Below, piece by piece: positions 57,401 to 63,400 of a DNA stretch of 64,000 bases. The position numbers were made by a program. The number at the start of each line of letters is the position of its first letter. Position 1 is the stretch's first letter. Where the stretch lies: the NCBI RefSeq assembly GCF_988243305.1, contig NZ_OZ547136.1; one strand, written 5' to 3'.

Positions 57401-60400
57401 GTGAACTCAGGCTGCCAGATCATCGTTTCCGATGGAAGCATAATAAGCTTTTTCTGCTTCTGCCGGAGGAGTATGGCCCAGCCTTTCCAGCAATCGTCGA
57501 TTGTTATACCAGTCCACCCACGTGAGTGTGGCCAGTTCCACTTCTGCACGGTTTTTCCAGCTCTTACGGTGTATTACCTCCGCTTTGTAAAGACCATTGA
57601 TGCTCTCCGCCATCGAGTTGTCAGTAAGCGTAAACTGACCGCCGTATGTAGCCATCAGACGAAAATTGGTAACTTAGACGCCCATCTGATATAGACGGAC
57701 ATCTAAGTATGGAATTACAGGACTGGCGAAAAGAACCTCGTAAAAACTATTCGAATGAATTCAAACTTCGTATGGTGGAACTGGCATCACAACCAGGAGC
57801 CTCTGTTGCCCGTATTGCCCGGGAACACGATATCAATGATAACCTCCTGTTCAAATGGCTCAGGCTCTGGCAGAACGAAGGGCGTATATCACGGCGTCTT
57901 CAGGTAACGACCTCTTCTGACACTGGCGTTGAATTATTACCTGTAGAAATAACGCCGGATGAGCAGAAAGAACCGGTGGCGGCCATTGCGCCGTCTTTAT
58001 CCACTTCCACTCAGACCAGTGTCAGTGCCGGCTCCTGCAAGGTGGAGTTCCGTCACGGTAACATGACGCTGGAAAATCCATCGCCAGAGCTGCTCACGCT
58101 GTTGATCCGTGAACTGACCGGGAGGGGACGATGATCTCACTCCCGTCAGGTACCCGCATCTGGCTCGTTGCCGACGTTACCGATATGCGTAAATCCTTCA
58201 ACGGATACGACATATGCTGAAGGAGGAGCAGTAATGGATTAAGTGATAACAAATACCCAGAAATAGAGGTTCAAATCCAGCTTAGTTAGTACATAAATAC
58301 TATTTTGATGAAAATTATTATATGTTTCCTCAGATTTTAATCAGGCGCCCAGATTAAACCAAGTATTGAGCGCCTGATTATGTTTATTCATTAATATCTG
58401 TCATTGATTGTCTTATTATCAGCTACCCCCGTATTAATCAGAGTTTTCATTTATTTTTAATGCATAATCAGATGCCGCCTCATCATTATCCTCAGTATTA
58501 TCATAGCCGAAAACTTCTCCCGGACACGGGCGTTCACGATAATAGTCATCGTCATAGTTTTCATCGTCAGATAATGATATGTCGTATTCTGAATATGATT
58601 CACCACAATTATACATGAAATCATCTCCTTTGGGGGGGGCAATAATTAGTGAGTTTATTCGAAAAAATGATGAGCGCTAGACCAATCCACCCAACTTTTG
58701 ATTATAATCATGAAGATACTTGTCTCAGTACAAATTGAATCAAACTCAATGCAGCATGATTCACCTTTATATTCTCTCAGGGAAACCAAATACCACTACT
58801 CAACTATTAAGAACAAAATTCGGGATGTATGATTATCAGAAGATACCTGCATCCTAAATAATTTCAGACAGATATTATCGTTGTGAATCCCCCGCCACCT
58901 TTCCGGTGCGCGGGGTTTTGTCTTTTTTCACCGGGAATACATGTATGAATCCGTCTGATGCCATTGAGGCAATTGAAAAACCACTTTCTTCCCTGCCTTA
59001 CTCGCTTTCCCGTCACATCCTGGAACATCTGCGCAAACTCACCAGTCACGAACCCGTGATTGGCATTATGGGGAAAAGCGGGGCCGGTAAATCCTCACTC
59101 TGTAATGCACTGTTTCAGGGGGAGGTCACCCCGGTCAGTGATGTTCACGCCGGCACCCGGGAAGTGCGGCGCTTCCGTCTGAGTGGCCATGGTCACAACA
59201 TGGTTATCACTGACCTGCCCGGGGTGGGCGAGAGCCGGGACAGGGATGCAGAGTATGAAGCCCTGTACCGTGACATTCTGCCTGAACTGGACCTGGTACT
59301 GTGGCTGATTAAAGCCGATGACCGTGCCCTGTCTGTGGATGAGTATTTCTGGCGACACATCCTGCACCGGGGACATCAGCAGGTGCTGTTTGTGGTGACG
59401 CAGGCCGACAAAACGGAGCCCTGCCATGAATGGGATATGGCCGGTATTCAGCCTTCTCCTGCACAGGCACAGAACATTCGCGAAAAAACGGAGGCGGTAT
59501 TCCGTCTGTTCCGGCCCGTACATCCGGTTGTTGCCGTATCGGTCCGCACCGGCTGGGAACTGGATACGCTGGTCAGTGCGCTCATGACAGCGCTTCCCGA
59601 CCATGCCGCCAGTCCCCTGATGACCCGCCTGCAGGACGAGCTGCGCACGGAATCTGTCCGCGCTCAGGCCCGTGAACAGTTTACCGGTGCGGTGGACCGG
59701 ATATTTGACACGGCGGAGAGCGTCTGTATTGCCTCTGTTGCATGCACGGTTCTGCGTGCCGTCCGTGACACGGTGGTCTCTGTTGCCCGCGCTGTATGGA
59801 ACTGGATTTTCTTCTGAACACTCTGCCAGGGGAAATGCCTGATTACATTGCGTTAACCAACTGAAAACATGACACAAACACCTCATACCCCTCCTGTTTC
59901 TCTTGCGTGGCTGCCTTGTTATTAATAGAATAAAACGATCGATAAAACAGGTATCGATCGTTACCATCGATCGTTTATAGTGGTTAATGGCCTGCGAAAA
60001 GGCAGCTGAATCTCTTCATCATGCAGAACGGAATTGCACACAACGGACTGATACTTCTCTGGCGGATGAGAGAGGGGAAGCATTTATGTCCGGGAAAAAC
60101 CACTTTATCTGACCATGCTGTTTTGTACCTGCCGGTATCCACATTTGTGGGTACCGGCTTTTTTATTCACCCTCTGTAAGGAAAAGCTGATGAAACGACA
60201 TCTGAACACCAGCTACAGGCTGGTATGGAATCACATTACAGGCACCCTGGTGGTGGCTTCCGAACTGGCACGCTCACGGGGAAAAGGCGCCGGTGTGGCG
60301 GTTGCTCTGTCTCTTGCTGCTGTCACGTCAGTCCCGGCACTGGCTGCTGACACGGTTGTACAGGCGGGAGAAACCGTGAACGGCGGAACACTGACAAATC

Positions 60401-63400
60401 ATGACAACCAGATTGTCCTCGGTACGGCCAACGGAATGACCATCAGTACCGGGCTGGAGTATGGGCCGGATAACGAGGCCAATACCGGCGGGCAATGGAT
60501 ACAAAATGGCGGTATCGCCAACAACACTACTGTCACCGGTGGTGGTCTTCAGAGAGTGAATGCCGGAGGAAGCGTTTCAGACACGGTTATCAGTGCCGGA
60601 GGCGGACAGAGCCTTCAGGGGCAGGCAGTGAACACCACTCTGAACGGCGGTGAGCAGTGGGTACATGAAGGCGGGATTGCAACGGGTACCGTCATTAATG
60701 AGAAGGGCTGGCAGGCCGTCAAATCCGGTGCAATGGCAACCGACACGGTTGTGAATACCGGCGCGGAAGGAGGACCGGATGCGGAAAATGGTGATACCGG
60801 GCAGACCGTCTACGGAGATGCCGTACGCACCACCATCAATAAAAATGGTCGTCAGATTGTGGCTGCTGAAGGAACGGCAAATACCACTGTGGTTTATGCC
60901 GGCGGCGACCAGACTGTACATGGTCACGCACTGGATACCACGCTGAATGGGGGGTACCAGTATGTGCACAACGGAGGTACAGCATCTGACACTGTTGTTA
61001 ACAGTGACGGCTGGCAGATTATCAAGGAAGGTGGTCTGGCGGATTTCACCACCGTTAACCAGAAAGGTAAACTGCAGGTGAACGCCGGTGGTACAGCCAC
61101 GAATGTCACCCTGACGCAGGGCGGCGCACTGGTCACCAGTACGGCGGCAACCGTCACCGGCAGCAACCGTCTGGGCAATTTCACTGTGGAAAACGGTAAT
61201 GCTGACGGTGTTGTTCTGGAGTCCGGTGGTCGCCTGGATGTACTGGAGGGCCATTCAGCCTGGAAAACACTGGTGGATGACGGCGGTACCCTGGCAGTGT
61301 CTGCCGGTGGTAAGGCAACAGATGTCACCATGACATCCGGTGGTGCCCTGATTGCAGACAGTGGTGCCACTGTTGAGGGGACCAATGCCAGCGGTAAGTT
61401 CAGTATTGATGGCATATCCGGTCAGGCCAGCGGCCTGCTGCTGGAAAATGGCGGCAGCTTTACGGTTAATGCCGGAGGACTGGCCAGCAACACCACTGTC
61501 GGACATCGTGGAACACTGACGCTGGCCGCCGGGGGAAGTCTGAGTGGCAGAACACAGCTCAGTAAAGGCGCCAGTATGGTACTGAATGGTGATGTGGTCA
61601 GTACCGGCGATATTGTTAACGCCGGAGAGATTCGCTTTGATAATCAGACGACACCGGATGCCGCACTGAGCCGTGCTGTTGCAAAAGGCGACTCCCCGGT
61701 AACGTTCCATAAACTGACCACCAGTAACCTCACCGGTCAGGGTGGCACCATCAATATGCGTGTTCGCCTTGATGGCAGCAATGCCTCTGACCAGCTGGTG
61801 ATTAATGGTGGTCAGGCAACCGGCAAAACCTGGCTTGCGTTTACAAATGTCGGAAACAGTAACCTCGGGGTGGCAACCTCCGGACAGGGTATCCGGGTTG
61901 TGGATGCACAGAATGGTGCCACCACAGAAGAAGGTGCGTTTGCCCTGAGTCGCCCGCTTCAGGCCGGCGCCTTTAACTACACCCTGAACCGTGACAGCGA
62001 TGAAGACTGGTACCTGCGCAGTGAAAATGCTTATCGTGCTGAAGTCCCCCTGTATGCCTCCATGCTGACACAGGCAATGGACTATGACCGGATTCTGGCA
62101 GGCTCCCGCAGCCATCAGAGCGGTGTAAGCGGTGAAAATAACAGCGTCCGTCTCAGCATTCAGGGCGGTCATCTCGGGCACGATAACAACGGTGGTATTG
62201 CCCGTGGGGCCACGCCGGAAAGCAACGGCAGCTATGGCTTCGTCCGTCTGGAGGGTGACCTGCTCAGAACAGAGGTTGCCGGTATGTCACTGACGACAGG
62301 AGTGTATGGTGCTGCAGGCCATTCTTCCGTTGATGTTAAGGATGATGACGGCTCCCGCGCCGGCACGGTCCGGGATGATGCCGGCAGCCTGGGCGGATAC
62401 CTGCATCTGGTACACACGTCCTCCGGCCTGTGGGCTGACATTGTGGCACAGGGAACCCGCCACAGCATGAAAGCGTCATCGGACAATAACGACTTCCGCG
62501 CCCGGGGCTGGGGCTGGCTGGGCTCACTGGAAACCGGTCTGCCCTTCAGTATCACTGACAACCTGATGCTGGAGCCACAACTGCAGTACACCTGGCAGGG
62601 ACTCTCCCTGGATGACGGCCAGGATAACGCCGGTTATGTGAAGTTCGGGCATGGCAGTGCACAACATGTGCGTGCCGGCTTCCGTCTGGGCAGCCACAAC
62701 GATATGAACTTTGGTAAAGGCACCTCATCCCGTGACACCCTGCACGACAGTGCAAAACACAGTGTGCGTGAACTGCCGGTGAACTGGTGGGTACAGCCTT
62801 CTGTTATCCGCACCTTCAGCTCCCGGGGAGACATGAGCATGGGTACAGCCGCAGCCGGCAGTAACATGACGTTCTCACCGTCCCGGAATGGCACGTCACT
62901 GGACCTGCAGGCCGGACTGGAAGCCCGTGTCCGGGAAAATATCACCCTGGGCGTTCAGGCCGGTTATGCCCACAGTGTCAGCGGCAGCAGCGCTGAAGGT
63001 TATAACGGTCAGGCCACACTGAACGTGACTTTCTGATAATCAGGTCACTCCCCTTCAGGCCCCGGTCATTATGACCGGGGCCTTTTACTTTCAGGGATCA
63101 ACAGATATGCCGGGTTGTGCATCACGTTTATTGCCCGAAGCCCCTTTTGCTGCCAAATGGCATCTGAATTGATCACAGTCTGGCCGGTTATTACCCGATG
63201 GGGATATTGGGTGATCTCCTTCCATGAAAATACGCAGCTCACCAGTGAAGGGCTTCTCAGACAATAAACGTCATTCATTTCATTTGTCAGGCCGCGTCTT
63301 CTCCGGGAGACGTGGCTTTTTCATTTATTACACCAGTAAATCTTAACCACCGATAAGGAGCAAATTATGCGACTAGCCAGTCGTTTTGGTTATGCTGCAA

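What the first reader, a model, noticed from the sequence alone, without database searches (positions are those of the whole stretch)
59930..63036. Ag43 variant with intact GATC switch
Three GATC sites within about 36 bp upstream of a 948-aa Ag43-like gene indicate Dam/OxyR phase-variable expression. The protein is shorter than the 1039-aa K-12 form as I recall it, so it is probably a different allele class.
Basis: partly seen in the sequence, partly recalled or inferred. Interest (0 to 1): 0.3.

Follow-up and report, generated by a model that had tools for sequence, protein, structure and literature searches.

The report
Known Ag43 adhesin gene and switch
This is the ordinary, already characterised antigen 43 (Ag43) self-sticking surface protein gene of uropathogenic E. 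coli (the allele found in strain UTI89), complete and preceded by the well-known DNA-methylation on/off switch.

Summary
GATC sites lie at 59937, 59956 and 59969, 218 bp upstream of an intact 948-aa gene (60190..63036).

Bases 59800-63100 are 100% identical to E. coli UTI89, NU14, IHE3034, UM146 and APEC O18. The protein is RefSeq WP_000820443.1. It matches NCBIfam auto_Ag43 end to end, and residues 52-613 match crystal structure 7KO9 without a mismatch.

The shorter length is not damage. K-12 Flu has 95 extra residues, all between aa 403 and 528, at the bottom of the passenger beta-helix. The autochaperone and barrel are intact. The protein is a mosaic, with a K-12-like stem and a Cah-like elbow and base, which is published class C4.

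A GATC cluster alone is not significant: three such clusters occur in this window. What matters is that the register matches K-12 flu exactly (19 and 13 bp). Two 8/10 OxyR half-sites cover the -10 box and all three GATCs, and this is the only such pair in 64 kb. The pair is kept in 9 of 9 alleles compared, and one of them has lost GATC-I.

The leader matches Rfam IS102/IsrC and carries a terminator.

Dam/OxyR phase variation is inferred by homology, not shown for this operator type. Verdict: already known, low interest.

The parts
58945..59817 (+). yeeP-like GTPase gene, the conserved upstream neighbour of agn43 in island modules
   Evidence: RefSeq CDS WP_001069739.1 'GTPase family protein' in UTI89 and CH4796. 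Pfam MMR_HSR1.
59903..59908 (+). Putative -35 hexamer TTGCGT, 17-nt spacer to the -10
   Evidence: Read from the sequence. It aligns with K-12 TTGTCC within the conserved TCTCTTG. It is too weak for the consensus scan (3/6), which found no promoter. Assigned by inference.
59926..59931 (+). Putative -10 hexamer TAGAAT
   Evidence: It lies in the block AATAGAATAAAACGATC, identical to K-12 and kept in 6 of 7 UTI89-type alleles. The K-12 isrC annotation starts at the G of GATC-I, 6 nt downstream.
59925..59939 (.). OxyR-consensus half-site A (ATAGAATAAAACGAT, 8/10); overlaps the -10 and GATC-I
   Evidence: Scan with ATAGnTnnnAnCTAT. It scores 8/10 in all 9 alleles compared and is identical in sequence in 8 of them.
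59937..59940 (.). GATC-I (Dam site)
   Evidence: Lost (AATC) in 1 of 7 UTI89-type alleles.
59956..59959 (.). GATC-II (Dam site)
   Evidence: Invariant in 9 of 9 alleles.
59957..59971 (.). OxyR-consensus half-site B (ATCGTTACCATCGAT, 8/10); spans GATC-II and GATC-III, and starts 32 bp after half-site A
   Evidence: It forms the only pair of half-sites scoring 8/10 or better at 32-bp spacing in the 64-kb window. Variation between alleles falls almost entirely at positions the consensus leaves unspecified.
59969..59972 (.). GATC-III (Dam site)
   Evidence: Invariant in 9 of 9 alleles.
59935..60171 (+). agn43 5' leader, which is the IS102/IsrC RNA
   Evidence: Rfam RF00124, 72.5 bits against a gathering score of 46, E = 4e-12, full model 1-206. 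K-12 annotates isrC at the equivalent place.
60131..60167 (+). Intrinsic terminator-like hairpin plus T-run inside the leader, 22 nt upstream of the ATG
   Evidence: 12-bp stem with 8 GC pairs, followed by TTTTTTATT. It forms in the minimum-free-energy fold. It is nearly invariant across both regulatory types.
60178..60182 (+). Shine-Dalgarno AAGGA
   Evidence: Read from the sequence. Conserved in K-12 and CFT073.
60190..63036 (+). agn43 (flu) CDS, 948 aa plus stop; class C4 allele identical to UTI89 c1139 / WP_000820443.1
60190..60345 (+). Extended signal peptide (aa 1-52)
   Evidence: Pfam ESPR covers aa 6-52. The crystallised passenger begins at aa 53.
60346..62028 (+). Passenger domain (aa 53-613): L-shaped beta-helix plus autochaperone domain
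   Evidence: Residues 52-613 align to PDB 7KO9 without a mismatch. Pfam AIDA x5 and AC_1 at aa 488-599. Structure described in PMC8993888.
61600..61773 (+). Stretch (aa 471-528) holding 94 of K-12 Flu's 95 extra residues (72 after aa 471, 8 after 487, 13 after 512, 1 after 528; the remaining one follows aa 403)
   Evidence: Alignments A2 and A4. [quoted passage not shown]
62029..63033 (+). Translocator (beta) domain, aa 614-948
   Evidence: 94% identical to K-12 and 97% to O157 Cah, without gaps. Pfam Autotransporter at aa 673-842.
63057..63092 (+). Intrinsic terminator after agn43
   Evidence: 12-bp stem with 9 GC pairs, followed by TTTACTTTC.

Best explanation
The region is the agn43 (flu) locus of an extraintestinal pathogenic E. 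coli genomic island. It carries the class C4 Ag43 allele found in UTI89 and other listed strains (NU14, IHE3034, UM146, APEC O18).

Shown here: the gene encodes a complete type Va autotransporter. It has an extended signal peptide (aa 1-52), a beta-helical self-associating passenger with an autochaperone domain (aa 53-613), and a 335-aa translocator. It is 91 aa shorter than K-12 Flu because the lower arm of the L-shaped helix has fewer rungs, not because a domain is broken.

Inferred by homology to K-12 agn43: transcription starts from a weak sigma-70 promoter (TTGCGT-17-TAGAAT) at about 59935-59937. An OxyR tetramer binds two half-sites, 59925-59939 and 59957-59971. These overlap the -10/+1 region and contain all three GATCs. 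Bound OxyR blocks RNA polymerase and shields the GATCs from Dam, giving the OFF state. If Dam methylates the GATCs after replication, OxyR cannot bind and the gene is ON. Either state is inherited, giving phase variation.

The transcript begins with a leader of about 253 nt, matching Rfam IS102/IsrC. Its intrinsic terminator, just before the ribosome-binding site, probably ends a fraction of transcripts early. A strong terminator after the stop codon makes the gene monocistronic here.
For: Identity and integrity:
- Bases 59800-63100 are 100% identical to UTI89, NU14, IHE3034, UM146 and APEC O18.
- The same RefSeq protein, WP_000820443.1, is annotated in two genomes.
- NF033177 auto_Ag43 equivalog scores 1982 bits against a cut-off of 1200, aligning 1-948 to 1-948.
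- Pfam finds ESPR, AIDA, AC_1 and Autotransporter domains.
- Residues 52-613 align to 7KO9 without a mismatch.
- The exact sequence is seen on 966 contigs.
- Published work places Ag43-UTI89 in class C4, shows it on the cell surface, and shows slow aggregation.

Allele class:
- aa 53-330 are 88% identical to K-12 and 72% to Cah.
- aa 331-613 are 92-97% identical to Cah and 49-64% to K-12.
- This matches the SL1-EJ2-BL2 definition of class C4.

Switch:
- The GATC register is identical to K-12, at offsets 58/77/90 in an ungapped alignment.
- Half-sites A and B both score 8/10 at 32-bp spacing. They are the only such pair in 64 kb, where 17 sites in total score 8/10 or better.
- The pair is kept in 9 of 9 alleles. 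Variation sits in the gap between the half-sites and almost entirely at positions the consensus leaves unspecified.
- Two GATCs 13 bp apart within one OxyR half-site is also the arrangement in the Salmonella gtr switch.
- Deleting oxyR derepresses agn43 121-fold in UPEC strain EC958.

Leader:
- RF00124 hit at 72.5 bits.
- Terminator hairpin.
Against: - No experiment on this operator type (the UTI89/Cah type) was found in the held literature. The Dam/OxyR work I could trace uses K-12. The UPEC strains where oxyR deletion was tested are probably K-12-type: this was checked only for CFT073 agn43b.
- Between GATC-I and GATC-II this operator differs from K-12 at 9 of 12 positions. It lacks the K-12 half-site in the 22-bp register (2/10 against 6/10). 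If OxyR uses that register, binding could be weaker.
- The promoter hexamers are too weak for the consensus scan, which found none.
- The assignment of the 32-bp spacing to reduced OxyR rests on my recollection of Toledano et al. 1994 and one sentence in PMC2909390. It does not rest on a footprint of this DNA.
- The host's dam and oxyR genes are outside the window.
Confidence: 0.85

Rival explanations
1. The switch works differently from K-12. The UTI89/Cah-type operator keeps only the two half-sites spaced 32 bp apart and has lost the 22-bp-register half-site. It also has a leader 31 nt longer with a diverged centre. OxyR affinity, the dependence on OxyR's redox form, the switching rates, or leader attenuation could therefore differ from the K-12 paradigm.
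For: - The upstream half-site in the 22-bp register scores 2/10 here and in 6 other UTI89-type alleles. It scores 6/10 in K-12 and CFT073 agn43b.
- The leader centre is unalignable with K-12.
- This regulatory type is the commoner one. 3445 of 5426 genomes have it over at least 80% of its length, whereas K-12 matches only the last 75 bp.
Against: - The two strongest half-sites, all three GATCs, the -10 box, the terminator and the ribosome-binding site are conserved between the two types. The core logic is therefore probably the same.
- Consensus scores are poor predictors of OxyR affinity.
- No functional data exist either way.
Confidence: 0.2
2. The GATC cluster is a chance feature or a relic, and the gene is expressed constitutively or is silent.
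For: - GATC triplets of this density occur by chance in a window of this size. There are 3 in the window, and random placement gives at least one in 46% of trials.
- No promoter passed the consensus scan.
- One natural allele has lost GATC-I.
Against: - The register is exactly that of K-12.
- GATC-II and GATC-III are invariant in 9 of 9 alleles, while the 5 nt between them vary freely.
- The paired OxyR half-sites are unique in the window.
- K-12's experimentally used promoter has equally weak hexamers at the aligned position.
Confidence: 0.03
3. The 948-aa gene is a deletion derivative that has lost adhesin function.
For: - It is 91 aa shorter than K-12 Flu, and the missing residues fall in the passenger.
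- The K-12 D551/P552 processing site aligns to R482/F483 here, so it is not conserved.
- Its processing site is stated to be unknown.
Against: - 948 is the length of the NCBIfam profile itself, and the protein matches it end to end.
- The 90% cluster has 26,437 members, and 11 of the 15 listed are 948 aa, the rest being partial.
- The identical passenger crystallised as an L-shaped beta-helix with an autochaperone domain.
- The full-length UTI89 protein is surface-exposed, heat-releasable, and causes aggregation.
Confidence: 0.02

Closest known systems
Ag43 of UPEC UTI89 (locus c1139; RefSeq WP_000820443.1; passenger structure PDB 7KO9; Vo et al. 2022, PMC8993888)
   Same: DNA is identical over 59800-63100, covering the regulatory region, leader, CDS and terminator. 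The protein carries the same RefSeq accession, and residues 52-613 align to the crystallised chain without a mismatch.
   Different: Only the genomic context differs. Upstream of 58850 the window is not UTI89. Here the yeeP-agn43 module follows iucABCD-iutA and an IS66 remnant, as in strain CH4796. In UTI89 it sits in the serX island beside sfa and iro.
E. coli K-12 flu/agn43 (b2000, 1039 aa, class C1) with its Dam/OxyR switch and isrC leader
   Same: Same family. The stem is 88% identical and the barrel 94%. The three GATCs are in the same register, and the -10 box, half-site A, leader terminator and ribosome-binding site are identical or nearly so.
   Different: K-12 has 95 extra residues in the lower passenger. 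The elbow and base are only 49-64% identical. The 12 nt between GATC-I and GATC-II differ at 9 positions, and the centre of the leader is unrelated and 31 nt shorter. yeeR lies downstream in K-12 but not here.
Cah, the Ag43 homologue of EHEC O157:H7 (949 aa, class C2; PDB 7KOH)
   Same: Same short architecture. aa 331-613 are 92-97% identical and the barrel 97%. Same regulatory and leader type, 89% identical over 321 bp, with all three GATCs.
   Different: The stem (aa 53-330) is only 72% identical, SL2 against SL1. The published aggregation phenotype is stronger for Cah.
Ag43a and Ag43b of UPEC CFT073 (class C3; PDB 4KH3, 7KOB) and the agn43-yeeR-irmA operon
   Same: Same family and the same yeeP-agn43 island module. 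OxyR repression has been shown in UPEC.
   Different: CFT073 agn43b is 1039 aa with a K-12-type regulatory region. It is followed by a gene at the yeeR position (annotated hypothetical protein) and an IrmA-family gene. Here a terminator and a DUF932 gene follow instead.
Salmonella gtr (P22) and opvAB Dam/OxyR phase-variation switches
   Same: GATC pairs 13 bp apart lie inside OxyR half-sites, and methylation blocks OxyR binding.
   Different: Those systems have four GATCs and alternative OxyR sites, with OxyR acting as both activator and repressor. agn43 has a single repressor site.

Membership tests
Ag43/Cah family autotransporter adhesin (NCBIfam NF033177, equivalog) | Full-length match above the curated cut-off | tested here: met
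   1982.4 bits against a cut-off of 1200; protein 1-948 aligns to profile 1-948 of 948.
Ag43/Cah family autotransporter adhesin (NCBIfam NF033177, equivalog) | Type Va architecture: signal peptide, beta-helical passenger, autochaperone, C-terminal beta-barrel | tested here: met
   Pfam ESPR at aa 6-52, AIDA x5, AC_1 at aa 488-599, Autotransporter at aa 673-842. The barrel is 94-97% identical to K-12 and Cah without gaps.
Ag43/Cah family autotransporter adhesin (NCBIfam NF033177, equivalog) | L-shaped three-stranded beta-helix passenger | tested here: met
   Residues 52-613 align to the solved chain 7KO9_A without a mismatch. The fold is described in PMC8993888.
Ag43/Cah family autotransporter adhesin (NCBIfam NF033177, equivalog) | Self-association that causes cell aggregation | not testable with these tools
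   Published for the UTI89 protein, which is the same RefSeq protein: slower sedimentation than Ag43a or Cah.
Ag43 passenger class C4 (SL1-EJ2-BL2; Ageorges et al. 2019) | Stem of type SL1 (closer to K-12 than to Cah or Ag43a) | tested here: met
   aa 53-330 are 88% identical to K-12 and 72% to O157 Cah.
Ag43 passenger class C4 (SL1-EJ2-BL2; Ageorges et al. 2019) | Elbow and base of type EJ2-BL2 (closer to Cah); short alpha-domain of about 430 aa | tested here: met
   aa 331-415 are 92% identical to Cah and 64% to K-12. aa 416-482 are 97% against 49%. The VVLESGGRLDVL motif is at aa 341. The paper assigns UTI89 to C4.
agn43-type Dam/OxyR epigenetic phase-variation switch | Three GATC sites in the conserved register immediately downstream of the -10 box | tested here: met
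   Sites at 59937, 59956 and 59969. The offsets are identical to K-12 in an ungapped alignment. GATC-II and GATC-III are invariant in 9 of 9 alleles.
agn43-type Dam/OxyR epigenetic phase-variation switch | OxyR binding site that contains the GATCs and overlaps the promoter | tested here: inconclusive
   Two 8/10 consensus half-sites lie at 59925 and 59957, a pair unique in the window. This is consensus matching only. Actual binding was not tested, and the K-12 half-site in the 22-bp register is absent (2/10).
agn43-type Dam/OxyR epigenetic phase-variation switch | Functional sigma-70 promoter at the operator | tested here: inconclusive
   The consensus scan found none. TTGCGT-17-TAGAAT aligns with the K-12 promoter region, and the K-12 isrC start maps 6 nt after the -10 box.
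agn43-type Dam/OxyR epigenetic phase-variation switch | Heritable ON/OFF states with opposite GATC methylation; locked by dam or oxyR mutation | not testable with these tools
   Known for K-12. oxyR deletion derepresses agn43 in UPEC EC958. No data were found for this operator type.
IS102/IsrC RNA (Rfam RF00124) | Match above the gathering score over the full model, including the 3' terminator hairpin | tested here: met
   72.5 bits against 46, model positions 1-206, window 59935-60171. The central part has long insertions relative to the model.
agn43-yeeR-irmA operon (Moriel et al. 2016) | yeeR and irmA downstream of agn43 and co-transcribed with it | tested here: not met
   A strong terminator lies at 63057-63083. 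The next gene is a DUF932 gene, in UTI89 and CH4796 alike.

The most novel reading that the evidence does not exclude
The regulatory region here, shared with EHEC cah, is the commoner agn43 type in E. coli (3445 of 5426 complete genomes). It is not the K-12 type on which the Dam/OxyR model was built. It lacks the K-12 OxyR half-site in the 22-bp register and has a longer leader with a diverged centre. It could therefore switch with different rates, or respond differently to OxyR's redox state or to leader attenuation, than the textbook switch.
Probability: 0.2. Interest if true: 0.3.

Novelty: already known. Interest (0 to 1): 0.08.

Why it matters
It matters little as a discovery. The allele, its class, its crystal structure, its aggregation phenotype and the general switch mechanism are all published.

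The practical value is correct annotation: this is an intact, probably phase-variable class C4 agn43 within an aerobactin-bearing island.

One small residual point remains. Most E. coli carry this UTI89/Cah-type operator and leader, not the K-12 type that was dissected experimentally. A direct comparison of the two would show whether the textbook switching parameters apply to most clinical strains.

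Tried and rejected
- MAFFT alignment of the regulatory region against K-12 inserted a 13-nt gap and misaligned GATC-II and GATC-III. 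An ungapped alignment anchored on AATAGAATAAAACGATC shows the identical register. I rejected the gapped version.
- Scanning with the 37-bp OxyR consensus in the 22-bp register gave ambiguous 10-11/16 matches at several offsets. Such scores occur about 80 times in the window. I replaced this with a half-site scan.
- I first assumed the window was UTI89 and fetched UTI89 annotation for positions 1-50000. BLAST showed that the window matches UTI89 only from 58850 onward. My tentative link of the 24969 GATC cluster to the sfa switch was therefore wrong and I dropped it.
- The sigma-70 consensus scan found no promoter. I treat this as uninformative, because the aligned K-12 hexamers are equally weak.
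- Wallecha et al. 2002 could not be read: it is not held under its PubMed id, under a PMC id I guessed, or under its correct id PMC135096. The OxyR footprint coordinates therefore could not be taken from the primary source.
- A literature search for Dam/OxyR control of cah, and checks of two SMRT methylome papers, produced nothing specific to this operator type.
- The exact-pattern scan of 100,044 species-representative genomes found a single hit. It is a 1.5-kb contig of a 'Collinsella' metagenome-assembled genome that carries E. coli cah-type sequence and is probably mis-binned. It gave no evidence of the operator outside E. coli.

Full report
**Observation**

The sequence shows GATC at 59937, 59956 and 59969, a 36-bp span. 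The third site ends 218 bp upstream of an ATG at 60190. That ATG opens a 948-codon frame ending at 63036.

The mechanical ORF list extends the frame to an ATG at 60115 (973 aa). That codon lies inside the 5' leader, upstream of a terminator hairpin. RefSeq annotates the 60190 start in two genomes. The NCBIfam Ag43 profile aligns 1-948 to 1-948.

GATC clustering alone is weak evidence. The window has three triplets within 40 bp (18497, 24969, 59937). Random placement of its 179 GATCs gives a cluster of 36 bp or less in 46% of trials.

**Identity**

Bases 59800-63100 are 100% identical to UTI89, NU14, IHE3034, UM146, APEC O18 and others. The protein is RefSeq WP_000820443.1, 'Ag43/Cah family autotransporter adhesin'. 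This exact sequence is seen on 966 contigs. Its 90% cluster has 26,437 members, and 11 of the 15 listed are 948 aa, the rest being partial.

- NCBIfam NF033177 (equivalog) scores 1982 bits against a cut-off of 1200.
- Pfam finds ESPR (aa 6-52), five AIDA repeats, the type 1 autochaperone domain (aa 488-599) and the autotransporter barrel.
- Residues 52-613 align without a mismatch to PDB 7KO9, the Ag43-UTI89 passenger.
- Vo et al. 2022 (PMC8993888) describe that structure as an L-shaped three-stranded beta-helix. Its C-terminal arm has four rungs instead of seven. They place the protein in class C4. The full-length protein reaches the surface and mediates aggregation, though more slowly than Ag43a or Cah.

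**Why it is shorter than K-12 Flu**

K-12 has 95 extra residues: 72 after aa 471, 8 after aa 487, 13 after aa 512, and single residues after aa 403 and aa 528. The window protein has 4 residues that K-12 lacks, giving the net difference of 91 aa. Everything from aa 601 onward, including the barrel, aligns without gaps at 94% identity.

The protein is a mosaic:

| Region | Identity to K-12 | Identity to O157 Cah |
|---|---|---|
| aa 53-330 (stem) | 88% | 72% |
| aa 331-613 (elbow, base, autochaperone) | 49-64% | 92-97% |

This is exactly the SL1-EJ2-BL2 combination that Ageorges et al. 2019 define as class C4. They attribute the length difference between C1/C3 and C2/C4 mainly to a shorter BL subdomain.

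**The switch**

MAFFT misaligned the regulatory region. An ungapped alignment anchored on the shared AATAGAATAAAACGATC puts all three GATCs at identical offsets in the window and in K-12 (58/77/90), with start-to-start spacings of 19 and 13 bp.

I scanned with the OxyR half-site consensus ATAGnTnnnAnCTAT, as quoted in PMC2909390. Two 8/10 half-sites emerge:

- **Half-site A**, 59925-59939, overlaps the TAGAAT -10 box and GATC-I.
- **Half-site B**, 59957-59971, contains GATC-II and GATC-III.

They start 32 bp apart. In the whole window only 17 positions score 8/10 or better, and this is the only pair at 32-bp or 22-bp spacing.

The same pair is present in all nine alleles compared: seven of the UTI89/Cah type, plus K-12 and CFT073 agn43b. 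Differences fall in the 17-nt gap and almost entirely at positions the consensus leaves unspecified. The 5 nt between GATC-II and GATC-III read TTACC, TTTAT, CTACT, TTGCT, CCATC or TTGAT, while the flanking ATCGATCG blocks are constant. One pig isolate has lost GATC-I (AATC).

This pattern of conservation is the real evidence that the cluster is functional.

From established knowledge of K-12 agn43 (summarised), OxyR bound here represses transcription and protects the GATCs from Dam. Methylation prevents OxyR binding. The two states are heritable. Deleting oxyR raises agn43 mRNA 121-fold in UPEC EC958. For this operator the mechanism is inferred by homology, not demonstrated.

**Leader**

Rfam IS102 (IsrC) matches 59935-60171 at 72.5 bits against a gathering score of 46. 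K-12 annotates isrC from the G of GATC-I to the leader terminator.

The hairpin at 60131-60158 plus its T-run is nearly invariant in both regulatory types. It forms in the minimum-free-energy fold. It ends 22 nt before the ATG, so productive mRNA must read through it. From my own recollection of Wallecha et al. 2014 (not held in the library), premature termination in this leader reduces expression.

A second strong terminator follows the stop codon at 63057-63083. The next gene is a DUF932 gene. The agn43-yeeR-irmA operon described for CFT073 and EC958 is therefore not present here.

**Two regulatory types**

The 321 bp upstream of the gene match 3445 of 5426 complete E. coli genomes over at least 80% of their length, mostly at 95-99% identity. 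K-12 matches only the last 75 bp. CFT073 agn43b shares the K-12 type.

The two types differ in the 12 nt between GATC-I and GATC-II and in the centre of the leader. The leader is 253 nt here and 222 nt in K-12. The K-12 type has an additional 6/10 half-site in the 22-bp register, which scores 2/10 here.

Regulatory type and coding class are uncoupled. Ecol_881 has this regulatory region in front of a 1039-aa gene.

This is the only point where something modestly new could hide. The commoner operator type appears not to have been dissected directly, at least in the literature I could read. I give a functional difference about 20% probability.

**Context**

The window is not UTI89 upstream of 58850. 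Here the yeeP-agn43 module follows iucABCD-iutA and an IS66 remnant, as in strain CH4796. The first 25 kb carry island genes such as malX and several IS elements. So the same agn43 module sits in different islands.

An exact-pattern scan for the operator in 100,044 species-representative genomes returned only one contig. It is a 1.5-kb 'Collinsella' metagenome-assembled contig carrying E. coli cah-type sequence, and is probably mis-binned.

**Verdict**

Novelty: already known. Interest is low.

Noticed in passing
window 59880-60200, compared with L002 (K-12) and L013 (CFT073): There are two distinct agn43 regulatory/leader types. The UTI89/Cah type seen here is present over at least 80% of its length in 3445 of 5426 complete E. 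coli genomes. K-12 and CFT073 agn43b carry the other type, which matches only the last 75 bp.
   Followed up: partly
L006 (Ecol_881) 201-720: The same UTI89-type regulatory region precedes a 1039-aa agn43. Regulatory type and coding-length class are therefore recombined independently.
   Followed up: partly
L005 (YSP8-1, pig) about 255-262, aligned to window 59937: This natural allele has GATC-I mutated to AATC and a G in the -10 box (TAGAGT). GATC-II and GATC-III are intact.
   Followed up: no
window 61633-61641 (aa 482-484): The K-12 alpha/beta processing site D551/P552 aligns to R482/F483 here, so the cleavage dipeptide is not conserved. The literature says the processing site of this allele is unknown.
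   Followed up: partly
window 18497-18535 and 24969-24995: Two other clusters of three GATCs lie within 39 and 27 bp. By rough mapping onto CH4796, the first lies in the rbsK/fucP gene region and the second near an IS4 end. Neither has an OxyR half-site pair. They look like chance clusters.
   Followed up: partly
window 40000-58850: The agn43 module here lies directly downstream of the aerobactin cluster iucABCD-iutA and IS66/IS3 remnants, as in strain CH4796. It is not in the serX island context of UTI89. The window matches UTI89 only from 58850 onward.
   Followed up: partly
window 63037-63366: A strong terminator lies at 63057-63083 and a second terminator-like hairpin at 63289-63318, before the DUF932 gene. 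yeeR and irmA, which follow agn43 in CFT073 and EC958, are absent.
   Followed up: partly
L015 (JAIJJM010000733.1, MAG 'Collinsella sp.') 900-1250: This 1.5-kb contig, binned as Collinsella, carries an E. coli cah-type agn43 regulatory region. The homology breaks off inside the leader terminator hairpin. It is probably mis-binned or chimeric.
   Followed up: partly
window 59910-59917 and 59999-60006: A perfect 8-nt inverted repeat, GCTGCCTT / AAGGCAGC, brackets the promoter-operator with 81 nt between the arms. Its significance is unknown and it may be chance.
   Followed up: no
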